A DNA stretch of 48,262 nt, taken from the sequence record MF158042. The stretch is one strand, 5' to 3'. The notes under the pieces were generated by a model that was given only the letters and a program-made list of their open reading frames with translations, did not search any database and was not told where the DNA came from. Position numbers and translations under genes: made by a program. Source of the DNA: Shigella phage Sd1. Within the stretch, counting starts at the first letter, position 1. Every line of letters starts with the position of its first letter. Below, one piece after another: positions 3,314 through 19,646 of this stretch.

Positions 3314-3531
3314 AAGAAATACTCCGGGCAATCTTTCTTCATTTCTTCAATGTCAGCAACCATACGGTCGCGCCATGTTTCGATATCTGTTTTCAGGTAA
3401 TCTTCTTCGAAACTATAATCAAGGCACCACGCTAAATCCCAAACGTCATGTTTATATCCAGACTTGGTCAACTCCTGAGCCACCATCGCCTGAAAGAGTT
3501 CCCATTGCTTATCAAAAGTTAATTTTTTCAT
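3310..3531 (-). CDS. Hypothetical protein
   Basis: ORF, start/stop overlaps with neighbours. Confidence 0.45.
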   Translation of the reverse strand: MKKLTFDKQWELFQAMVAQELTKSGYKHDVWDLAWCLDYSFEEDYLKTDIETWRDRMVADIEEMKKDCPEYFL

Positions 3532-7995: not shown

Positions 7996-8010
7996 TAGCA
8001 ATTCGTGCTA
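7996..8010. promoter_or_regulatory. Palindrome site S3 (tagcaattcgtgcta) 25 bp upstream of tailspike start
   Basis: Perfect copy of the palindrome but no -10 at the usual plus-strand spacing; possible operator or antisense promoter. Confidence 0.35.
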
Positions 8011-8034
8011 TTTTACAAATGGAGACTTTACACA

Positions 8035-10293
8035 ATGGCGATTTATGACTTAGGAACAGCGTCGCTGGCCGCAAATGGCGAGATAACTGGCGTCGGGACA
8101 ACATGGAAAGCACCTCTTACATTGATCAGAGTTGGTGCAACCATTGTATTTAAAACTGAGCCAGTACAAATTTACACCATATCTGAGATCATCAGCGACA
8201 CACAGATTAATGTTTATAACCCCAATTCTGAAACTGCCCCTGCCGGAACTGGTTACGCGATTCTTGCTCACGATGGGATTACCGTTCAGGGTTTGGCTCA
8301 GGATGTTGCTGAAACTCTGCGTTACTATCAGTCAAAAGAAACTTCAATTGAGTCCTTAATTGAAATAATTGAAAACTCAGATATTGATGTTATTGATGGT
8401 AAAATTCAGGAAATGCAGCAAATTCTAAGTAGCACAATGGCAGCAGAAGCGTCAGCAAAATCAAGTAGTGATAGCGCTCTTGAATACAGTAATGAATCGA
8501 TAAACAGTTCTAATGAGTCAAAGTCTGCAAGGGATGAGGCGGTAGCTGCTAAGAATTCGACAATTGAAGCTATTAATAACGCAGGAGATGCTGGAACACT
8601 GGTTACACTCTCCAATTCTAGCGGCGCTTCTCTTATCGGCACGGCTGATGGCGTCACTGTTCAGGAGGCAATTACAAATATAAACTCCGAACTAAGCTCT
8701 GTGAGTGGTTTGAGGGGAGATTTAGCCAGTGTAGATGGTTCAAGTTTGGTCTATCTCCCGAGCTACGATGACCTGCGTTCGTATTCTGGCACAGCAACAT
8801 ATCTATATGTCAGAGGGCGAAGTGCTGGAACCACATTGGCCTGTGGGTGGTTTGGCATTTCCCTTGAGGATACTACAACGCCAGACGATGACGGGACAAT
8901 TTTAGTCGACGCCCTCAATCGGAGATGGGTTCGTATATTTAATGGGGTCTTACTTCCAGAATGGTTTGGGGCCGATCCATCAGGAACTTCAGATTGCACG
9001 AGCGCTTTTAATAAATGCTTCGCATCTGCAAAAGGAAAAGAGGTAAAACTAGGCGGTAAGTATAAATTCCTTAACCCTATTGTAGTTGACTACGGGGATC
9101 AGTATAGCCTCAAGGTTAGTGGCACCGGGAGCTCAAACCATAAGAGTGGCGCGAAGACAGATAACTACTGTTATCTTGATTTTGATGATATCCCAGAAGG
9201 CTCGAGAGCTTTAACATTCAAAGGTGTAAGAGGTCTTAACCTAAATGATTTCCATATATCACACCGTAAAGCTAGCTCGTCGGTATCGATTGCTTTATGG
9301 ATTACTCAGCTTGATAACTTTAAAATTGATGGTTTAAGTATAGATTCAAATTCTGGCCCATCTGGTCAGGGTATTCGTTTCGGAGAGTCTAGTGGTGAAG
9401 ACTGTGCTTTCATGGGGTCGGTGTCAAATTGCAAAGTATGGATGCACGGGGGCGGGCCAGCATTTGCAGTGCAACCTTTATGCACATCAATAACACTAAA
9501 GAACTGCTATCAAATAGGGGGGTATTATTATTTTCAAGGCTGCATTTACATGTCCATGCTATCTTGTGCCTCAGAAGGAAGTCAGGTAAACGGTTATGGT
9601 TATGTTCTGTATTCCGTGAAAGGGCTCACGGCCATAAACTGTGCAGGTGAGGGAAATAAAAATGGAGTTTTTTACATTTCTAATGGATCAAGTAACGTAG
9701 AAATAATTTCTCCTTTTGGCTCTGGCAACAACTCGGGTAATACAGCTATACCTGGCGCCCTTGTTTATGTGGATGGAAGTAGTGGGTTTAATGCTAATAT
9801 TCATATAGATAACCCCGTGAGCGAGAATCAAGGCTCAAACACAGTTAATGATATTGGTTTTAGTTCTTCCAATAAAAACATTAGTGTATCAAACGTGTAT
9901 TCGCAGAATCTATCAAAAGGAATCGGTGGCTCTGATTCGTGGGCGGCTTTAGATCTTAGTGTTAGTGGGGATTTATCACAAAGGCGATTTACCTTCACCA
10001 CTAGTGGTTTCACGGTGTCATCACCGGTGATGAGTGGGAGGTACGTTAGAAATGGTAAGAGGGTTGATTTCCACCTATCATTTAGCGGAAGCTCTGTAAT
10101 AAACACAACACTTGGCTCGAGCCTTTTACAGCTTCCATTTGGTTCGTTGGTTGCTGAATCAGTATGCTCTGTTACTAGTAATACTGGCACCAGTTTTGGA
10201 AATGCAATCATAAATTCCAGTGGAAATATCTATTTACCAACAACTAGCGGAGCCACTGGTTTTGTAATTTCTGGCTCAATCATCACGGAATAA
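8035..10293 (+). CDS. Tailspike/tail fiber with conserved N-terminal anchor domain and beta-helix (pectate-lyase-like, putative depolymerase) body
   Basis: N-terminus MAIYDLGTASLAANGEITGVGTTWK... of the phage fiber N-terminal type; Ser/Asn/Gly-rich repetitive beta-strand composition with many NxxG/SxxN motifs; ATG with ggag SD. Confidence 0.6.
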   Translation: MAIYDLGTASLAANGEITGVGTTWKAPLTLIRVGATIVFKTEPVQIYTISEIISDTQINVYNPNSETAPAGTGYAILAHDGITVQGLAQDVAETLRYYQSKETSIESLIEIIENSDIDVIDGKIQEMQQILSSTMAAEASAKSSSDSALEYSNESINSSNESKSARDEAVAAKNSTIEAINNAGDAGTLVTLSNSSGASLIGTADGVTVQEAITNINSELSSVSGLRGDLASVDGSSLVYLPSYDDLRSYSGTATYLYVRGRSAGTTLACGWFGISLEDTTTPDDDGTILVDALNRRWVRIFNGVLLPEWFGADPSGTSDCTSAFNKCFASAKGKEVKLGGKYKFLNPIVVDYGDQYSLKVSGTGSSNHKSGAKTDNYCYLDFDDIPEGSRALTFKGVRGLNLNDFHISHRKASSSVSIALWITQLDNFKIDGLSIDSNSGPSGQGIRFGESSGEDCAFMGSVSNCKVWMHGGGPAFAVQPLCTSITLKNCYQIGGYYYFQGCIYMSMLSCASEGSQVNGYGYVLYSVKGLTAINCAGEGNKNGVFYISNGSSNVEIISPFGSGNNSGNTAIPGALVYVDGSSGFNANIHIDNPVSENQGSNTVNDIGFSSSNKNISVSNVYSQNLSKGIGGSDSWAALDLSVSGDLSQRRFTFTTSGFTVSSPVMSGRYVRNGKRVDFHLSFSGSSVINTTLGSSLLQLPFGSLVAESVCSVTSNTGTSFGNAIINSSGNIYLPTTSGATGFVISGSIITE

Positions 10294-13054: not shown

Positions 13055-13687
13055 TTACTTTTTATCCAACTTAAGCAAGCCGCCATTATCTAAAAGATTA
13101 GAAACCAGCTCATCCTTATCGATTACCTTCTGGCAAAGAATCTCACACTGAGATTGATATGAGTAGACCATCTCAAGAGCATCAAAGAGCCTGCTGGATT
13201 CAGACTTAACTTTATATAGCTCCTCGTGAACCTCCTCACCATTTGGAGCTTTATCAATGTACTTGTAGATAATCTTCTCTAGCTTGTAAACCTCATCCTC
13301 GGCGCGATTACGTGCTGCTAGCTCCTTGTTCGTTTGAAGCTTCTCTTTCAATACCATATCGTAAGATACCATCTTAGCCATGTGCTCTTTGAGTAACTTA
13401 TTCTCCCGCTCAAGGTGAAGCCAGCGATCAATGATTCTAGCAGCAATTTCTTGGCTATAACCAGCCATCAAAATCATCGTTTCCCTGAATTTTAGGTTAT
13501 ACATTGGTAAATCCTTGTTCTGGCTTGATTTGTAGGAGGATACAAATTTGTATTCTCCTCCATCACCAAACTGCCTATTAAGCATATCCCTAACATCCCT
13601 TAGTACTATAAAGTGTTCCTTGCCAGTTAATTCAGCAATCTCAAGGCTACTCATGGTTACGTTTTCATCAATATTCATCAGATTCAT
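13055..13687 (-). CDS. Rha-family phage regulatory protein (start uncertain; 13732 and 13798 are alternatives)
   Basis: N-terminus MNLMNIDENVTMSSLEIAELTGKEHFIVLRDVRDML matches the Rha-type N-terminal pattern. Confidence 0.5.
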   Translation of the reverse strand: MNLMNIDENVTMSSLEIAELTGKEHFIVLRDVRDMLNRQFGDGGEYKFVSSYKSSQNKDLPMYNLKFRETMILMAGYSQEIAARIIDRWLHLERENKLLKEHMAKMVSYDMVLKEKLQTNKELAARNRAEDEVYKLEKIIYKYIDKAPNGEEVHEELYKVKSESSRLFDALEMVYSYQSQCEILCQKVIDKDELVSNLLDNGGLLKLDKK

Positions 13688-13787
13688 ATCTATTCTCTCG
13701 TTACCGCTCCTGAGTTTGAGGAGCGCTTTCATTTGTATCTGCCATTTTTTGGTAGATAGACGCAGCACCATTGCTGCCGATGAGTGC

Positions 13788-13830
13788 ACTATACCCATTC
13801 ATGAAGCATCCGTTTTGATTATTCGTGCTG
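13788..13830 (-). promoter_or_regulatory. Palindrome-type promoter P5 (degenerate site tgattattcgtgctg, 22-bp spacer, TATAGT)
   Basis: Same spacing and -10 as the other copies; left arm degenerate. Confidence 0.45.
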
Positions 13831-14189
13831 TTTTGTATATCGCTGTAAAACGCACCAAAATACGTTTTGCGACTCAGTACGCCGCATGAATGCTGAATGT
13901 AACTCTTGTAACCAATGTATCCACCAATTTTGCACCCTATCTATATCTATATGCATTTCCTCCTTAACAGGAAATCAAACATAGTCTTTTATAAAAACAT
14001 ACCAACATAGCTATAGAGAGTAGTTACAAGATATACATAGTAATATATATAATAATAATAATACTCTAAAACCTTATTATATAAGGATTCTATAGTGTAA
14101 CTAATGCGTATCTGTGCGTAAAAAGCGTATACAATTTTCTGCGGATGAGATTGTATACATCGAGTTACATCGGTTACGCGTATATAAAA

Positions 14190-14233
14190 TAGCACGATTT
14201 GCTAAAGACTACCGCATCAGCCTTTGCTATAGT
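14190..14233 (+). promoter_or_regulatory. Palindrome-type promoter P6 (tagcacgatttgcta, 23-bp spacer, TATAGT)
   Basis: Followed by leader tactccatcgaaacgaaac and ATG at 14274. Confidence 0.55.
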
Positions 14234-14273
14234 TACTCCATCGAAACGAAACATACTTACTAAGGAATACAAA

Positions 14274-14378
14274 ATGACTAACTTAACCACTAACGTAATC
14301 TCTGCAATCTTTGGCGTGGCAGTTACTGGTTTCTTCGTATGGGTTCTGCTGCTGGCTTCAAACTTTAACGGTTTCTAA
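14274..14378 (+). CDS. Small membrane protein (34 aa), not in ORF track
   Basis: MTNLTTNVISAIFGVAVTGFFVWVLLLASNFNGF; single TM helix; directly downstream of promoter P6. Confidence 0.35.
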   Translation: MTNLTTNVISAIFGVAVTGFFVWVLLLASNFNGF

Positions 14379-14388
14379 GGTGAATAAG

Positions 14389-14610
14389 ATGAAAAAACTA
14401 ATCGTTATCGCAGCAATGATGTTAGGTGGGTGCTCTACGATGCCAGAACGCACTTGTACGGCGGTTTATGAGTCAGGTGGAATGAGTTACTCGGTTTATG
14501 TTTTTGGCACGCAGAAGCGCGGTGAGGAGCTTTTACTTAGGGCTGGATATCCATTCTCGTTTCAGTACGTCTCTGAGCGGAATTTTAAAGACCACGATTG
14601 TAGTGGTTGA
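14389..14610 (+). CDS. Lipoprotein (73 aa); possible Cor-like superinfection-exclusion protein
   Basis: Signal peptide with lipobox MMLGGC; aaggtgaataag SD; lies at the end of the tail module; the exclusion role is positional inference only. Confidence 0.5.
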   Translation: MKKLIVIAAMMLGGCSTMPERTCTAVYESGGMSYSVYVFGTQKRGEELLLRAGYPFSFQYVSERNFKDHDCSG

Positions 14611-14613
14611 TAA

Positions 14614-14644
14614 AGAAAAAGCCCCGAAAGGGGCTTATTTAATT
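14614..14644. terminator. Bidirectional rho-independent terminator (gcccc-gaaa-ggggc)
   Basis: GC stem flanked by A-run and T-run between convergent genes. Confidence 0.7.
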
Positions 14645-15203
14645 AAATGTTTTCAAATGGCAACATCACATTGCTGCCATCTATTGATTCTAATTTGCAT
14701 TTAAAATCAGGACCATCCACAATAGCCGTAACATCATCGTGCTCCCAATTCCTTGTACCATCCCAATCATAGTATAACATAGAATGCCAAGGCTCTATTC
14801 TCTTGCGGATATATTCAATGTCAACCCTCGGGAATGGGAATATTTCTCCACCTGGATCGGCGTCAAAGTAACCGTCAATGCAGAAAAATTTTATATTAAA
14901 TTCAGGCTTTAAATCCAAAAACTCAACTAATTCTGCGCCAGTTTTAATTGTTGACTGGTACCTATCTCCATACTTATGACCATCTGGATAAGATTTTGTA
15001 TCGATCACATTTGAAGAAAAGATGTAGTCCTTTATCTCTCTTGCTATTAAGTGATTTCCGAATGGAAGCATTTGCTCATTAGGTAAAACTGTAAAAGCTC
15101 CATCATACCACTCAATGTCAATCATAAATGGACCTTGATATATATGCGTATTATTAGTTACCCAGAACACAAATCTAACTGAGTTTTCCTTTAATTCATT
15201 CAT
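14643..15203 (-). CDS. Hypothetical protein (186 aa) at distal end of tail operon
   Basis: ORF; no recognisable motifs. Confidence 0.45.
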   Translation of the reverse strand: MNELKENSVRFVFWVTNNTHIYQGPFMIDIEWYDGAFTVLPNEQMLPFGNHLIAREIKDYIFSSNVIDTKSYPDGHKYGDRYQSTIKTGAELVEFLDLKPEFNIKFFCIDGYFDADPGGEIFPFPRVDIEYIRKRIEPWHSMLYYDWDGTRNWEHDDVTAIVDGPDFKCKLESIDGSNVMLPFENI

Positions 15204-15213
15204 TTATTTCTCC

Positions 15214-15897
15214 TTAATCGTAGTTTGATGTATTAATTGCCACCGCAGTAACCCCAGTGTTTATTGAACCAGTTTGAGAGCCAGGTACAGTATTGTATCC
15301 AGCCGCCCTTATCCTGGTTCTAGAGCCGTTGTAGTTAGCTGTTGTGTAGAGGTCAATTGTATACCTCTGAGGTATACCTCCAACAATTTGCTCAGATATT
15401 ATTGCCCCTAACCTCCTCGGCGATACCGCCCATGATCCCGACAGTGATGATTCTGTATCTATGTTTATACCGCCTCCAGCTTGCCCTGGAGTTCCAATAG
15501 TTCTTAAATCTGAAAGCACCTTCGTTTCGTTAGTTAGTATTAACTTACCAGCAGCATCCCATATTGCCATACCCCAATCAGGTAATGTTTGCGTGAATAT
15601 CCCGAAAATATATACTGTGGCAGTAAAATTTTCTCCGCTTGAGTTTTGCGCTGTGAAGTAAACATTTCCGGAGTTTGGCCCACTTGTGAATCTGTAAGCA
15701 GCAATTCCCGTACCTGTGTTTGTCTCTGTCGTCTTTGCGAAAACCATGCAAGGTATATCATTTGGAACTGGTATGTAAACTGAACCTGTCATACCACCAC
15801 TACCAGAATGGGTTGTTTTTTTGTATAAAGCAAAAGGTGTTGAGTTTGGGGTTATGAATGGATTTCCATTAACATCAATCATTGCACCATAAGACAT
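15214..15897 (-). CDS. Hypothetical tail-associated protein (start at MSYGAMIDVNGN)
   Basis: Beta-rich Gly/Thr/Ser/Asn composition; N-terminus resembles that of the upstream 101-aa protein; TAATG overlap with it. Confidence 0.4.
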   Translation of the reverse strand: MSYGAMIDVNGNPFITPNSTPFALYKKTTHSGSGGMTGSVYIPVPNDIPCMVFAKTTETNTGTGIAAYRFTSGPNSGNVYFTAQNSSGENFTATVYIFGIFTQTLPDWGMAIWDAAGKLILTNETKVLSDLRTIGTPGQAGGGINIDTESSLSGSWAVSPRRLGAIISEQIVGGIPQRYTIDLYTTANYNGSRTRIRAAGYNTVPGSQTGSINTGVTAVAINTSNYD

Positions 15898-16202
15898 TAT
15901 TGATTCTCCAGATAAATTACAAGGTAGCACTCTTCTGCTGGATAAACTCCATCTCCAGGCGTTGTTGTTGCTGATATCGTTATAGCGTTTCCACTTGCGG
16001 TTATCTTTCTGGCTGCCTCATTTCCACCAACACTCAAGCTGACTGTGTAACCTAACTTTGTTCCAGACGGTATTGTGTATGAGTAACTCCCTGAAGTTTG
16101 ACCAGTCTCAAGCTTAACAACCGCAACAACCGTGACTGGCTTAATCCCATAGTTATTGTAATTACCATTCGCATCATATGTAGCAATTCCATACTCAGCC
16201 AT
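15897..16202 (-). CDS. Hypothetical tail-associated protein (101 aa)
   Basis: N-terminus MAEYGIATYDANGN similar to downstream paralog; directly downstream of J-like gene. Confidence 0.4.
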   Translation of the reverse strand: MAEYGIATYDANGNYNNYGIKPVTVVAVVKLETGQTSGSYSYTIPSGTKLGYTVSLSVGGNEAARKITASGNAITISATTTPGDGVYPAEECYLVIYLENQ

Positions 16203-16250
16203 AAAATTCCTCCTGTTGATAAGGGCAATTCCATTTGCCCATTCTATCAG

Positions 16251-19200
16251 TTAGTAAACTCCAGTCAAACGACCAATCTGAACGCGAAGTCTTCCGTTAG
16301 CATCGGCAACCGAGATGGTCTGGTTCGTTTGCTTCATTTTACCCTCTCCGGCCGTTGAGCCGTTATTCTCGAAAGTGCCAGCCTTATCAAGCCTCCAACC
16401 AGTGTTATTTGCAACAAAGTTATTTGACTGAATAGCACCACCAATCTTCGCGTTAGTGATTGAACCGTCCTGAATCACCGCGCTCTGAATGAACACCTGG
16501 TTATTATCTACAACGAAAGGCAGCGACCACTGACCGGAACCAGAGCTAATGCCGTTGCTTATTGCGAACCTGTTAGCATCGAAAATGAACTGACTACGAA
16601 CATTTCCACCACTACCAGTTAACTCCATGCTCATACCAGCGCCGTACTCAACTCCATTGTACTTCAGACCAAGCTTAACGCCGTACTGAACACCAACGCC
16701 TTCGACCGTGGCATAAGAGTCAAGCTTCTGATTCAAGGCCGCCTCGTTATCTCCAAGCCTTGCGCTTAATTGAGTATCAGCTGTAGCCCTGGCTTCGGTC
16801 TCCGTAGCAAGCGCGGTTTCAATTGTCGTAATCTGACCAACAATCTCATCATCAATCTGCGCTTTAAGCTCTGTGAGAGCATCTACACGCGCCTGAGTTT
16901 CATCAGCAATCAAACTTACAGCCTGACGATATTCAGCCTTCCTTGCCCCATTCTCGCGCTTCATAACGCGAACATCAGTGTCGTTTGCCAGAGCATTCTC
17001 TATGATTGCCTCAGCCTGATTCTGGATGTCAGTATTTGCATCAATGGCGTTCTGGAGGAGATACTTGTAACCATCAGAGTTTTCGATATCAACCTTTATT
17101 TCACCAATGATTGCACTCACGTCATCGGATGCCATACCCCTGACAAAGTCAGTCCATGGAGATACGTTACCTATCCTGTCAATAATCCTTGCCCTGTACC
17201 ATCTTACGTTTCCTGCCGGCAAAGTTGTGTGCCAGTATTCGTACTGAGGATACGGAACCAGCGTAAGCAGTGACGCGTTCTCTGGGTTGTATGTACCATC
17301 ACCATTATCAGGAACCTGCTGAAGCTCAGTGTACGCAGTATCAGCTGAATCATTAGGAAACCCCCATTTAACCCTAATCCCGAAAACCTCATCATCAGAT
17401 GCGGTAATTACAGGCGGCGCAGAAGGCTCCCCAATCTTGCCAGTCAGGCTAACTGTCGTGATATCAGACCAAGCAGATACCGATTTCTGGTCAGTTACAG
17501 CACGAACCCTTACGTCGTAAATGCCGGCGTAAATGCCTTCAATATCAACCTCTGTGTTAGCCGTCTCTGGCACGTTAATCCAGTTGCCGTTATTCTTACG
17601 CCATTGTACGTTGTATGTTTTTGCATACTGCACCTTGTCGTAGCCAATAACCATCGTCTCAACGCTCAAACCCTGAACTACCTTACTGTAGCTAGTAACG
17701 GTGATATTTTCAGGTGGTAAAATCCTGTCGGGGTCAACGATGCTTGTTGGCCTGTCATCGATGTTTACACCATAGTCAATCTCATCGTACTTGTTAGGAT
17801 CATACTGAACAGCCGTGATGCTGTACTGGAATGAGTCCTCTCCGTCCGTGTTAGCTTTTTGAATACCGGTCACCACGTACTGCTGCAACGCCAGATTCTG
17901 CTTGTCGATTGCGAATACCGTATCCGGCTGAGGTGTGAAGCTAAATGCTGTATTCAGTTCAAGCGTCAACTTATCGGCAGATACCGAAGCGATAGTTCTG
18001 TACTCTGGGCTGCCATCTGGCTTGTTGATTAGAATCCTGTCGCCAGGGTCAGCATCAATAGCGAACGGAACAAAAACCTGCAATCCTGTAGCTTTAACAA
18101 TTCGCCCCGAAAGGTTCAATGTGTAGTTGCTAGACCACGCCTGGTCATTGACAGCAATCACATCACCAATCATAGGAATCATGCCTTCTAGGCCAGTTGT
18201 AAACGTTACCGTTTCACTGCGCAGGTTTGTTTTCAGCAACCAACGACCTCGTCGGTTAGCTTCACTGCGCCTTACGCATCCAATTGCAGTCAGGTCTACA
18301 GGGTTATAACCAAATCGGCGAGTTGCCTCAAGGTCGAATACCGGCTCCACATCTTGCTGGTAGTTGTTCTGCTCGTCATCAAACTGAACGTTGGCTGTCG
18401 TGTAAAGGCTCTTGTCGCTGGAAAACGTGCGGTTGAACAATCCATTAACTACGTTGTCATTAGTGAATACGTAGCTGGGTTGACGCGGCCTGTCCACTAC
18501 AATACCGATTTGCTCACCATCATAGAAAGTTAATCCACGGAAGATTGAGCAGATATCACGAATCAGCTGGTACGCTTCAACTTTCTGTTGCATGACAACG
18601 TTGCAAGTGTAACGCGGCTCCAATCCACCCTTTCCATCAGGAACCATCTGGTCGCAGAATTGCGCAGCTTCATACAGACCCCATTTATCAATCTCAACGC
18701 CAAGTTCACGCTGATCTAAGCCATAACGCTGACTAACCACCAGATCATATAAAACCCAGGCCGGGTTGTCAGACCATGCCATTTTAAATGTTCCATTCCA
18801 TGTGCCGCTATAAGTCCTTGTCTCTGGATTGTAGTTTGTCGGTACGCGGATAAGTTTCCACTTCTTCTTAATGGCTATCGTTGGGATCCCGTTAGGGAAC
18901 AGGTCGGAACTAAACTCCACGTAAACAAGTGCTGTTAGCGGGTAACGGAACTTAGCGTCGATTACTTCCTGATAGGTTGTAATCTGCATTCCGTTAACCA
19001 TGGTGCTGCTTGTTGAGTCTGGCGTTAACTTCCTAATACGAACAAGAGCGCTGCTAAACTCGGCTGGTAGGTTAACCCTGATGCTACGGTCGTAACCTGT
19101 TGTAGTTTTACCGTTAGCCACGCCTCTGGTATATTCAGTGTACGCTGAGCCATTAACTGATAAATCGATTGCATATTCGCATGTTGTGCCATTTAAATCT

Positions 19201-19646
19201 CCATTCTCTTCTTGCTTAACGAGCCTAGGCCAGAACAGCTTAACGCGGATTGCTGAAAGCTGACTGTTGTTAACTGCGATGATGTAAGGTGTATCATTGT
19301 TAATCTCACGACTAACCTGAATCTCGGATGCTGCACCATCTAGTCCTGATATGTAATCTTGAGATTGAGTGCCCGGGCGAAACTCAGCGGTTACACCTTC
19401 ATAGTTGAATGAGTTGTCCTGGTTCTGCACTGGAACATCAGCAAGGTAAACATCCTTTAGTGAGAAGCTAGAATCAACCTCACCATCAGCAACCGCAAGC
19501 AGAACCTTAATCTTGTTTAGTGAAATCAGGTTATCTTCTTGCTCTACAGGCGTGTGCGGCTTCTTGCTACCACCCTTGCTTCCATAAATCTTTGGCAAAT
19601 CGGCCATATCATATAACCTCGTTATTTGTTTAACCATTTGTGCCAT
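16251..19646 (-). CDS. Tail tip / host-specificity protein (lambda J-like, 1131 aa)
   Basis: Very large protein directly downstream of I/K/L/M-like genes; size and position typical of central tail fiber. Confidence 0.7.
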   Translation of the reverse strand: MAQMVKQITRLYDMADLPKIYGSKGGSKKPHTPVEQEDNLISLNKIKVLLAVADGEVDSSFSLKDVYLADVPVQNQDNSFNYEGVTAEFRPGTQSQDYISGLDGAASEIQVSREINNDTPYIIAVNNSQLSAIRVKLFWPRLVKQEENGDLNGTTCEYAIDLSVNGSAYTEYTRGVANGKTTTGYDRSIRVNLPAEFSSALVRIRKLTPDSTSSTMVNGMQITTYQEVIDAKFRYPLTALVYVEFSSDLFPNGIPTIAIKKKWKLIRVPTNYNPETRTYSGTWNGTFKMAWSDNPAWVLYDLVVSQRYGLDQRELGVEIDKWGLYEAAQFCDQMVPDGKGGLEPRYTCNVVMQQKVEAYQLIRDICSIFRGLTFYDGEQIGIVVDRPRQPSYVFTNDNVVNGLFNRTFSSDKSLYTTANVQFDDEQNNYQQDVEPVFDLEATRRFGYNPVDLTAIGCVRRSEANRRGRWLLKTNLRSETVTFTTGLEGMIPMIGDVIAVNDQAWSSNYTLNLSGRIVKATGLQVFVPFAIDADPGDRILINKPDGSPEYRTIASVSADKLTLELNTAFSFTPQPDTVFAIDKQNLALQQYVVTGIQKANTDGEDSFQYSITAVQYDPNKYDEIDYGVNIDDRPTSIVDPDRILPPENITVTSYSKVVQGLSVETMVIGYDKVQYAKTYNVQWRKNNGNWINVPETANTEVDIEGIYAGIYDVRVRAVTDQKSVSAWSDITTVSLTGKIGEPSAPPVITASDDEVFGIRVKWGFPNDSADTAYTELQQVPDNGDGTYNPENASLLTLVPYPQYEYWHTTLPAGNVRWYRARIIDRIGNVSPWTDFVRGMASDDVSAIIGEIKVDIENSDGYKYLLQNAIDANTDIQNQAEAIIENALANDTDVRVMKRENGARKAEYRQAVSLIADETQARVDALTELKAQIDDEIVGQITTIETALATETEARATADTQLSARLGDNEAALNQKLDSYATVEGVGVQYGVKLGLKYNGVEYGAGMSMELTGSGGNVRSQFIFDANRFAISNGISSGSGQWSLPFVVDNNQVFIQSAVIQDGSITNAKIGGAIQSNNFVANNTGWRLDKAGTFENNGSTAGEGKMKQTNQTISVADANGRLRVQIGRLTGVY

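What the first reader, a model, noticed from the sequence alone, without database searches (positions are those of the whole stretch)
14274..16202. Accessory genes at the distal end of the tail module: lipoprotein, small membrane protein and a paralogous protein pair
Downstream of the J-like gene are two proteins with similar N-termini (MAEYGIATYDANGN and MSYGAMIDVNGN) and a 186-aa protein of unknown function. Across a bidirectional terminator, and transcribed the other way from a palindrome promoter, are a 34-aa single-pass membrane protein and a 73-aa lipoprotein. This location is where siphoviruses commonly keep receptor-blocking superinfection-exclusion lipoproteins and fibre accessory proteins, so these are candidates for host-interaction or exclusion functions.
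Basis: inference. Interest (0 to 1): 0.45.

Follow-up and report, generated by a model that had tools for sequence, protein, structure and literature searches.

The report
Phage FhuA-recognition and Cor exclusion cassette
This stretch of a T1-like Shigella phage is the already-described cassette found after the tail-tip gene of phages that use the FhuA receptor: two probable receptor-binding tail-tip proteins and the Cor lipoprotein that closes the receptor after infection, plus a conserved 34-residue membrane peptide and a one-of-a-kind 186-residue gene whose roles are unknown.

Summary
All five ORFs and the shared terminator are real and sit at the stated coordinates. The window is Shigella phage Sd1 (Drexlerviridae, T1-like).

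- **Lipoprotein:** the 73-aa protein is Cor. It scores above NCBIfam's curated cut-off and is 73-74% identical to T1 Cor and 35% to phi80 Cor.
- **The pair:** the 101-aa and 227-aa proteins are the N15/phi80 gp22-like and gp23-like pair. Together with cor they form the published "Cor cassette" / FhuA-type receptor-binding locus downstream of gpJ.
- **Paralogy:** this holds only in part. The 101-aa family aligns weakly but above shuffled controls with the N-terminal domain of the 227-aa family. A short hairpin motif recurs three times.
- **Two extras:** the 34-aa membrane ORF is conserved and under purifying selection in seven phages. The 186-aa gene has no detectable relative anywhere, and the sister phage Sf12 carries an unrelated orphan gene in the same slot.

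The core is a new member of a known kind, so interest is modest.

The parts
14024..14053 (+). Candidate sigma-70 promoter TTACAA-18-TATAAT for the tm34-cor transcript, overlapped by an AT-rich palindrome (14038-14057).
   Evidence: The homologous position is annotated as a promoter in AHP24. The region 13900-14284 is 93-96% identical in about 40 Rogunavirinae genomes. The site was not listed by my own consensus scan, so it is inferred.
14274..14378 (+). tm34: a 34-aa single-pass membrane peptide gene immediately upstream of cor.
   Evidence: Maximum KD(19) is 2.44 at residues 8-26. The same 34-codon ORF with a conserved AAGGA/GAGG ribosome-binding site occurs in Sf12, MM01, Phagiculus, Phleasolo, JulesPiccard and RobRod40, and dN/dS against Sd1 is 0.14-0.38. 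It is absent upstream of T1 cor. Its leader and first 4 codons are shared with Rtp45-type lipoprotein genes.
14389..14610 (+). cor: the 73-aa outer-membrane lipoprotein Cor, which excludes FhuA-dependent phages from an infected cell.
   Evidence: NCBIfam NF047972 'phage exclusion lipoprotein Cor' (equivalog) scores 49.8 bits against a cut-off of 31. phrog_1119 matches at E 5.3e-28. It is 73-74% identical to T1 Cor and 35.5% to phi80 Cor. It has the lipobox LGGC, and the RAGYPFS motif and Cys23/Cys71 are shared with phi80 Cor.
14619..14636 (.). Shared intrinsic-terminator hairpin between the convergent tail operon and the tm34-cor unit.
   Evidence: Scored as terminator-like on both strands. 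Folding z-scores are -3.6 and -4.0. MM01 annotates a terminator at the same place.
14643..15203 (-). p186 (Sd1_gp25): an acidic 186-aa orphan gene at the 3' end of the tail operon.
   Evidence: No relative was found in any search. The annotated frame is coding-like, and the ORF is longer than any stop-free run in 2000 shuffles. Sf12 carries an unrelated orphan gene in exactly this slot; the swapped segment is 14637-15181.
15214..15897 (-). p227 (Sd1_gp26): the N15/phi80 gp23-like protein and probable FhuA-binding receptor-binding protein. It has an N-terminal hairpin plus beta-sandwich domain (residues 1 to about 102) and a C-terminal domain that begins with a second hairpin.
15897..16202 (-). 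p101 (Sd1_gp27): the N15/phi80 gp22-like small tail-tip protein and a distant paralogue of the p227 N-domain.
   Evidence: phrog_557 matches at E 1.7e-30. It is 55% identical to the T1 and phi80 gp22 homologues. BASEL annotates its JulesPiccard homologue as 'putative tail tip protein'. The global hhalign score against the p227 N-domain is 21.6, compared with a shuffled null of 2.6 +/- 2.4.
16223..16240 (-). Conserved hairpin between the J stop codon and the p101 start codon; a possible attenuator.
   Evidence: Conserved in eight phages, with a compensatory change in T1 (GGGCAT..ATGCCC) and a T-run after it in T1 and JulesPiccard. Its function is inferred.
16251..19646 (-). J-like central tail fibre / tail-tip protein (1131 aa), which the module is thought to attach to.
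   Evidence: Best solved relative is T1 gp33, 9l9p_S. The C-terminal third of T1 gp33 was not resolved by cryo-EM.

Best explanation
The region is the FhuA-type host-recognition and self-exclusion cassette of a T1-like phage, Shigella phage Sd1.

**Late genes.** p101 and p227 are transcribed and translationally coupled with the tail operon just after the J-like fibre gene. They are soluble all-beta proteins. p227 has an N-terminal hairpin plus beta-sandwich domain of the kind also found in LptD-type receptor-binding proteins, and a divergent C-terminal domain. p101 is a free-standing copy of that N-terminal domain. I infer that they dock on the C-terminal tip of the trimeric J fibre and that p227 binds the outer-membrane transporter FhuA to trigger DNA ejection.

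**Early genes.** Across the shared terminator, and reading the other way from its own promoter, the phage makes Cor. [quoted passage not shown] By homology with the phi80, N15 and T1 Cor proteins, it inactivates FhuA, so that the infected cell and its debris no longer adsorb this or other FhuA-dependent phages.

**Extras.** The 34-residue membrane peptide is co-translated just upstream of cor and is conserved, but its role is unknown. The 186-aa gene is a lineage-specific orphan inserted between the receptor-binding gene and the terminator.

**Shown here:** gene structure, family membership, synteny, fold similarity and sequence conservation. **Inferred:** virion location, FhuA binding, exclusion phenotype and timing of expression.
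For: - **Cor membership:** NF047972 scores 49.8 bits against a cut-off of 31, and phrog_1119 matches at 5e-28. It is 73-74% identical to T1 Cor and 35% to phi80 Cor over the full length. The lipobox and conserved Cys/RAGYPFS residues are present.
- **Synteny:** the order J, then gp22-like, then gp23-like, then cor is the same in T1, phi80, JulesPiccard, Phleasolo, RobRod40 and MM01.
- **Literature on the locus:** alleles of the locus downstream of gpJ match the terminal receptor (PMC8594841). One protein family in this locus is specific for FhuA (10.64898/2026.04.02.716166). Cor plus these two genes is present in all ten BASEL Drexlerviridae and Dhillonvirus phages that carry them, and all ten use FhuA; the same cassette is in T1, HK022, N15, ES18 and phi80 (PMC13164509).
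- **A close relative with genetic data:** the locus tags of RobRod40 read CPL00221. The preprint (10.64898/2026.04.02.716166) reports that CPL00221 depends on FhuA and NupG and carries a locus-encoded RBP specific for FhuA or LptD.
- **N-domain relationship:** the N-domains of the FhuA-type and LptD-type families align globally at 21.2, against a shuffled null of 3.4 +/- 2.2.
- **Solubility and coupling:** p101 and p227 have no transmembrane segment or signal peptide, their stop and start codons overlap, and each has a strong ribosome-binding site.
Against: - No experiment on Sd1 itself was available, so FhuA dependence, virion composition and the exclusion phenotype are all untested.
- Foldseek found no significant PDB match for p227. 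Full-length profile-profile comparison with LptD-type RBPs is not significant (probability 2%). The fold link therefore rests on one method plus an N-domain signal judged against a lenient column-shuffle null.
- The authors of PMC13164509 instead assume that the two proteins assist exclusion.
- The published T1 cryo-EM structure did not resolve the distal J tip, so attachment of these proteins has not been seen.
- Which of p101 and p227 contacts FhuA is not established.
Confidence: 0.75

Rival explanations
1. p101 and p227 are not virion proteins. [quoted passage not shown]
For: They co-occur strictly with cor (PMC13164509), and the PHROG labels point this way.
Against: - Neither protein has a signal peptide, lipobox or transmembrane segment; maximum KD(19) is below 1.
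- They are transcribed with the late tail operon, opposite in direction to cor, in T1-like phages.
- The best structural match for p227 is a validated RBP.
- BASEL and the 2026 receptor screen treat the locus as the RBP locus.
Confidence: 0.08
2. p101, and possibly also p227, is an assembly chaperone or adaptor for the J tip and is absent from the mature virion, in the manner of tail-fibre assembly proteins. On this view receptor binding resides in the J C-terminus.
For: The J C-terminal tip co-varies with receptor class (10.64898/2026.04.02.716166). In TolC- and LamB-type phages, J itself carries the specificity. p101 is small, acidic (pI 4.6) and translationally coupled to p227.
Against: The locus-encoded homologue in the LptD system binds the receptor directly, as shown by cryo-EM (9rpt). 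p227 shares its N-domain and its fold.
Confidence: 0.12
3. tm34 is not a functional protein. On this view it is a recombination scar, namely the signal-peptide stub of a replaced Rtp45-type lipoprotein gene, retained as an upstream ORF that couples ribosomes to cor.
For: The leader, ribosome-binding site and first four codons are identical to those of Rtp45-type lipoprotein genes in LptD-type relatives. The left junction of the module swap lies at window 14284. The tm34 stop codon lies 10 nt before the cor ATG. T1 cor has no such ORF.
Against: The ORF length and frame are kept in seven phages of two subfamilies. dN/dS is 0.14-0.38. The most conserved part is the C-terminal FFVWVLLLASNFxGF, which has no counterpart in a signal peptide.
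Confidence: 0.3
4. p186 is a moron-type accessory gene, for example an anti-defence or host-takeover protein, picked up at the terminator-proximal end of the tail operon. On this view it is unrelated to receptor recognition.
For: - It is absent from T1, JulesPiccard, Phleasolo, RobRod40 and MM01.
- Sf12 carries an unrelated orphan gene in the same slot, with clean junctions at 14637 and 15181.
- Both genes have low GC (0.357 and 0.352, against 0.445 for the genome) and both products are acidic (pI 4.6 and 4.05).
- It has no signal peptide.
Against: No homology or usable structure exists. It is expressed, by position, with late tail genes, which is unusual for anti-restriction functions. An RBP-accessory role cannot be excluded.
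Confidence: 0.5

Closest known systems
The cor cassette of T1, phi80, N15, HK022 and ES18 (N15 gp22 - gp23 - Cor), also described as the FhuA-type bona fide RBP locus of BASEL small siphoviruses.
   Same: The three protein families are the same: phrog_557, phrog_425 and Cor (NF047972). The order directly downstream of J is the same. Cor is 73-74% identical to T1 Cor and p227 is 52% identical to its T1 homologue, and cor is convergent as in T1.
   Different: Sd1 adds a 186-aa orphan gene between the gp23-like gene and the terminator, which only Sf12 also does, and with an unrelated gene. It carries the 34-aa membrane ORF upstream of cor, which T1 and phi80 lack. In phi80 and other lambdoid phages cor lies on the same strand as J.
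The LptD-type locus: the Rtp44 / Oekolampad RBP (PDB 9rpt) with the Rtp45 exclusion lipoprotein.
   Different: - It recognises a different receptor.
- The C-terminal domains show no sequence similarity, and full-length profiles are not significantly related.
- It has a single 310-327-aa RBP with no gp22-like partner.
- The RBP gene is transcribed together with the lipoprotein gene, not with J.
T5 pb5 / Llp.
   Same: The receptor (FhuA) and the strategy are the same: a monomeric RBP at the tip of the central fibre, and a small lipoprotein that inactivates FhuA from the periplasmic side. The predicted Cor fold is reported to resemble Llp, with TM-score 0.69 (PMC13164509).
   Different: pb5 is an unrelated, much larger protein encoded elsewhere in the genome. 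The Cor/Llp similarity was not tested here.

Membership tests
Cor superinfection-exclusion lipoprotein (NCBIfam NF047972, phrog_1119) | Profile score above the curated cut-off over the full length | tested here: met
   The score is 49.8 bits against a cut-off of 31, covering residues 1-72 of 73. phrog_1119 matches at E 5.3e-28.
Cor superinfection-exclusion lipoprotein (NCBIfam NF047972, phrog_1119) | Lipoprotein signal peptide with a lipobox cysteine, and no Asp at position +2 (outer-membrane sorting) | tested here: met
   The N-terminus reads MKKLIVIAAMMLGG-C15-S. Sorting to the outer membrane is inferred from the +2 rule.
Cor superinfection-exclusion lipoprotein (NCBIfam NF047972, phrog_1119) | Conserved core shared with the experimentally studied phi80 Cor | tested here: met
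   It is 35.5% identical over residues 1-71. The RAGYPFS-x-x-VS motif and two further Cys residues are conserved.
Cor superinfection-exclusion lipoprotein (NCBIfam NF047972, phrog_1119) | Excludes FhuA-dependent phages when expressed | not testable with these tools
   This needs plating assays.
FhuA-type RBP locus (N15 gp22-like phrog_557 plus gp23-like phrog_425) | Both protein families present, at full length | tested here: met
   phrog_557 matches at 1.7e-30 and phrog_425 at 1e-66. The proteins are 52-55% identical to the T1 and phi80 homologues.
FhuA-type RBP locus (N15 gp22-like phrog_557 plus gp23-like phrog_425) | Position directly downstream of the J-like gene, with cor adjacent | tested here: met
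FhuA-type RBP locus (N15 gp22-like phrog_557 plus gp23-like phrog_425) | The phage depends on FhuA as its terminal receptor | not testable with these tools
   This is known for relatives carrying the same cassette but not for Sd1.
FhuA-type RBP locus (N15 gp22-like phrog_557 plus gp23-like phrog_425) | The proteins are part of the virion tail tip and bind FhuA | not testable with these tools
   There is no solved homologue by sequence. The distal tip of T1 is unresolved.
LptD-type RBP family (Rtp44 / Oekolampad RBP, PDB 9rpt) | Significant full-length sequence or profile similarity | tested here: not met
   hhalign of A1 against A3 gives probability 2.3% and E 0.02. The C-domains are indistinguishable from shuffled controls.
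LptD-type RBP family (Rtp44 / Oekolampad RBP, PDB 9rpt) | Shared fold | tested here: inconclusive
Paralogous pair (p101 and p227 derived from one ancestor) | Similarity beyond the N-terminal motif | tested here: inconclusive
   - Full-length hhalign finds only a 13-column motif, at probability 18%.
- p101 against the p227 N-domain gives a global score of 21.6 over 93 columns, against a null of 2.6 +/- 2.4, with 0 of 100 shuffles reaching it.
- p101 against the p227 C-domain matches only in the 14-column hairpin.
- No structure of p101 was predicted.
Intrinsic (rho-independent) terminator | GC-rich hairpin followed by a T-run, placed after the last gene | tested here: met
   The T-run is strong for the minus-strand tail operon and weaker for the plus strand.

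The most novel reading that the evidence does not exclude
The FhuA-type module may be a two-protein receptor-binding complex built on three copies of one beta-hairpin docking motif, ([YW]G-h-A-[IT]-x-D-x-x-G). One copy is at the N-terminus of p101, one at the N-terminus of p227, and one at the start of the p227 C-domain.

Together the three hairpins would occupy the three equivalent sites of the trimeric J tip, so that a three-fold fibre ends in a single asymmetric FhuA-binding surface. The hairpin plus beta-sandwich N-domain would then be a universal J-tip adaptor shared with LptD-type RBPs. That would make the 'four unrelated' RBP families of small siphoviruses chimeras of one docking domain with exchangeable receptor heads.

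Separately, the orphan-gene slot after the RBP gene (p186 in Sd1, a different orphan in Sf12) could hold a new class of fast-turnover accessory genes.
Probability: 0.2. Interest if true: 0.55.

Novelty: new member of a known kind. Interest (0 to 1): 0.3.

Why it matters
**Known core.** The cassette allows receptor use (FhuA) and cross-exclusion behaviour of an uncharacterised Shigella phage to be predicted from sequence. This is useful for choosing non-redundant phages for cocktails and for anticipating resistance through fhuA loss.

**Modest new points:**
- There is a structural and N-domain link between the FhuA-type and LptD-type receptor-binding proteins. This would support modular engineering of receptor specificity by swapping C-terminal heads.
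- The 34-codon membrane ORF ahead of cor is conserved but unannotated or misannotated in several genomes.
- The end of the tail operon is an insertion slot that holds different orphan genes in sister phages.

Tried and rejected
**p186**
- It has no hit in any of these: Pfam, PHROGs, PADLOC, NCBIfam, PDB sequences at E up to 10, the word-indexed search of 5.8 billion proteins, full HMMER against 1.84 billion representatives, tblastn against 50,697 phage records at E up to 1, and pattern scans of IMG/VR and of 185,579 genomes.
- The AF2 single-sequence model has pLDDT 41.6 and is unusable, so it was not fold-searched.
- I tested whether p186 and the Sf12 gene in the same slot are diverged homologues and rejected this. 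The Smith-Waterman score is 36 against a shuffled mean of 35.3 +/- 6.0, and BLASTP is not significant.

**p227 and p101**
- I tested whether p227 is an internal duplication (N-half against C-half) and rejected this. The hhalign scores equal the null.
- Sequence searches of the PDB with both family profiles found nothing relevant.
- Foldseek against the PDB found nothing significant.
- Foldseek against BFVD found only uncharacterised proteins of about 220-250 aa from diverse phages, with TM-scores of about 0.5.

**Literature and other checks**
- The Sf11 tail structure paper has no bearing on this locus.
- The J Virol 2023 FhuA-attachment paper treats J itself as the RBP and does not address these genes.
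- My sigma-70 scan found fewer promoter-like sites than shuffles give (6 against 8.5), so it gives no independent support for any promoter here.
Full report
**Identity of the window and anatomy of the region**

The 186-aa ORF is 100% identical to 'hypothetical protein Sd1_gp25 [Shigella phage Sd1]', recorded on a contig of 48,262 bp, which is the length of the window. The closest genome in the phage collection is Shigella phage Sf12 (Drexlerviridae, Rogunavirinae). It is 95% identical over 77% of window 13900-16300.

Reading the minus strand, the layout is:
- The J-like central fibre gene (16251-19646, 1131 aa) is followed by a 48-nt spacer containing a hairpin and an AGGAGG ribosome-binding site.
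- p101 follows at 15897-16202.
- p227 follows at 15214-15897. Its ATG overlaps the p101 stop codon (TAATG).
- p186 follows at 14643-15203, with an AAGGAG ribosome-binding site.
- A GC-rich hairpin at 14619-14636 closes the operon.

Converging on the same hairpin from the plus strand are a 34-codon ORF (14274-14378) and, 10 nt later, a 73-codon ORF (14389-14610). The hairpin is terminator-like on both strands and folds far better than shuffled sequence.

**The lipoprotein is Cor**

- It passes NCBIfam's curated equivalog model 'phage exclusion lipoprotein Cor', scoring 49.8 bits against a cut-off of 31.
- It matches PHROG 1119 'Cor superinfection exclusion protein' at E 5e-28.
- By tblastn it is found at full length in 218 phage records. 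It is 73-74% identical to T1 Cor and 35.5% identical to the named cor gene of phi80.
- It has the lipobox LGGC. It also has the RAGYPFS motif and two further cysteines that are conserved as far as phi80.

According to the literature, Cor of phi80, N15, the mEp phages and T1 inactivates FhuA and so excludes FhuA-dependent phages. Its predicted fold and docking site on FhuA resemble those of T5 Llp (PMC13164509). The exclusion function in Sd1 is inferred by homology and has not been shown.

**The pair downstream of J is the gp22/gp23-like set of the FhuA cassette**

- p101 matches phrog_557 (1.7e-30) and p227 matches phrog_425 (1e-66).
- Homologues of p227 occur in 347 phage records, including T1 (52%), lambdoid phages such as HK106, HK446 and mEp235 (47%), Dhillonvirus phages, and Klebsiella Webervirus phages (33%).
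- The same order (J, then a protein of about 101 aa, then one of about 225 aa, then cor) is annotated in T1, phi80 (there labelled 'similar to N15 gp22', 'gp23' and 'N15 Cor'), JulesPiccard, Phleasolo, RobRod40 and MM01.

Three papers bear on what this locus does:
- Maffei et al. matched alleles of the locus downstream of gpJ to each terminal receptor of small siphoviruses (PMC8594841).
- A 2026 screen of 255 coliphages confirmed this and named one locus-encoded family as specific for FhuA (10.64898/2026.04.02.716166).
- The KanT1 paper found Cor together with these two genes in ten BASEL phages, all of which use FhuA. It also recalled that the cassette is shared by T1, HK022, N15, ES18 and phi80 (PMC13164509).

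The locus tags of RobRod40 read CPL00221. The preprint reports that CPL00221 depends on FhuA and NupG. The Sd1 region is therefore one more member of a described cassette.

**Receptor-binding proteins or exclusion helpers**

[quoted passage not shown] I found no support for a membrane location. Neither protein has a signal peptide, lipobox or hydrophobic span (maximum KD(19) 0.58 and 0.92). Both belong to the late tail operon and are translationally coupled.

This link has limits:
- Foldseek against the PDB found nothing significant, which agrees with the KanT1 authors' negative Foldseek result.
- A full-length profile comparison with seven LptD-type RBPs is not significant.

When the profiles are split into domains, the first 102 residues of the FhuA-type family align end to end with the first roughly 117 residues of the LptD-type family. 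The score is 21.2, against 3.4 +/- 2.2 for column-shuffled controls, and 0 of 60 shuffles reach it. The N-terminal 15 residues carry most of the local signal (MSYGAMIDVNGNPF against MPQGILIDLNDGRP). The C-terminal domains score no better than shuffled controls.

I read this as a shared docking domain joined to receptor-specific heads. This is why I prefer the receptor-binding explanation, at a confidence of about 0.75 for the cassette as a whole.

**The 'paralogous pair' claim**

- BLASTP and full-length hhalign align only 13-14 residues. Unexpectedly, they align the p101 N-terminus with residues 105-117 of p227 (LPDWGMAIWDAAG) rather than with the p227 N-terminus.
- The motif therefore occurs three times: at the p101 N-terminus, at the p227 N-terminus, and at the start of the p227 C-domain.
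- In the p227 model these two segments form small hairpins and are the only low-confidence parts (pLDDT 49-61). This fits elements that become ordered only on a partner.
- The p101 family aligns globally with the p227 N-domain over 93 columns. The score is 21.6, against a null of 2.6 +/- 2.4, and 0 of 100 shuffles reach it. It does not align with the C-domain beyond the hairpin.
- The two halves of p227 are not detectably related to each other.

Paralogy between p101 and the p227 N-domain is therefore suggested but not established.

**The 34-codon ORF**

- It is a genuine conserved small gene. The same 34-codon frame, with a conserved ribosome-binding site and ending just before cor, is present in Sf12, MM01, Phagiculus, Phleasolo, JulesPiccard and RobRod40. 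These phages belong to two subfamilies.
- Protein identity to Sd1 is 74-91%, and dN/dS against Sd1 is 0.14-0.38.
- It is unannotated in Sf12 and MM01, annotated with longer starts in Phleasolo (as 'putative lipoprotein') and JulesPiccard, and overlaid by opposite-strand calls in Phagiculus.
- T1 and phi80 lack it.
- Its leader, ribosome-binding site and first four codons are identical to those of the Rtp45-type exclusion-lipoprotein gene in LptD-type relatives (MTNF/L...). The megablast matches of about 40 Rogunavirinae genomes stop at window 14284.

The left recombination junction of the receptor module therefore lies inside these first codons. tm34 may have begun as a signal-peptide stub. 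Whether it now acts as a membrane protein or only couples translation into cor is open.

**The 186-aa gene**

- It is coding-like in its own frame, scoring 0.155 bits per codon while all five other frames are negative. The ORF is also longer than any stop-free run in 2000 shuffles of the region.
- It has no detectable relative in any library searched.
- T1, JulesPiccard, Phleasolo, RobRod40 and MM01 have no gene at this position.
- Sf12 has a 176-aa gene there that is also unique to Sf12 and is unrelated to p186.
- Homology between Sd1 and Sf12 breaks exactly at 14637, which is the end of the terminator, and resumes at 15181, just inside the start of the ORF.
- Both products are acidic (pI 4.6 and 4.05). 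Both genes have GC of about 0.35, against 0.445 for the genome.

I regard p186 as a lineage-specific accessory gene in an insertion slot. Its function could not be addressed.

**Verdict**

The core is an already-described FhuA recognition and Cor exclusion cassette, so Sd1 is a new member of a known kind. The points beyond the literature are modest and need experiments:
- the threefold hairpin motif;
- the conserved tm34 ORF and its junction with the Rtp45-type leader;
- the orphan-gene slot after the receptor-binding gene.

Noticed in passing
window 16223-16240 (minus strand), and 16241-16268: There is a conserved hairpin (GGGCAA..TTGCCC) between the J stop codon and the p101 start codon. T1 has a compensatory change (GGGCAT..ATGCCC), and T1 and JulesPiccard have a T-run after it, so it may be an attenuator that sets the J:RBP ratio. 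A 10-of-12 sigma-70-like match with an extended -10 (TTGACT-16-TAGAAT) overlaps the J stop codon just upstream.
   Followed up: partly
window 13900-14284: The AT-rich divergent intergenic region (GC 0.34) upstream of tm34-cor is 93-96% identical in about 40 Rogunavirinae genomes that carry a different, LptD-type receptor module. The homology ends within the first four codons of the first gene, which marks the left junction of receptor-module exchange.
   Followed up: partly
window 14643-16202 compared with 16251-19646: p101, p227 and p186 all have GC3 of 0.33, whereas J has 0.48. This is consistent with the module having been acquired horizontally.
   Followed up: no
L001 (Sf12) 1081-1629: Sf12 carries an HNH homing-endonuclease gene next to its exonuclease VIII gene. 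The window shows a 322-aa exonuclease-like ORF directly followed by a 64-aa ORF in the ORF list, so this may be a further difference between the sister phages.
   Followed up: no
window 8005-10293 (+): There is a 762-aa ORF on the opposite strand to the recombination genes. It lies at the position where relatives annotate the lateral tail fibre. Its middle part reads like a beta-helix depolymerase or tailspike. I did not examine it.
   Followed up: no
window 13055-13798 (-): A 247-aa ORF diverges from the tm34-cor promoter region. ORFs at the same position in relatives are annotated 'regulatory protein' or 'anti-repressor'. A possible link to the palindromes at 14121-14158 was not tested.
   Followed up: no
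L007 (Phagiculus) 1341-1821; L001 (Sf12) 3375-3476; L009 (MM01) 2586-2687: Public annotations miss tm34, and in Phagiculus they also miss cor, which is replaced there by small opposite-strand ORF calls. tblastn shows that intact tm34 and cor are present in these genomes.
   Followed up: yes
PDB entries 23gd (chain D, 'J-like tail tip protein gp24') and 9ze4 (chain N): Recent solved structures contain J-like proteins related to the window's J, at E 1.5e-196 and 3.9e-10. bas18_0024 is the J gene of Oekolampad, so 23gd may show how a locus-encoded RBP docks on J. Its other chains could not be inspected here.
   Followed up: no
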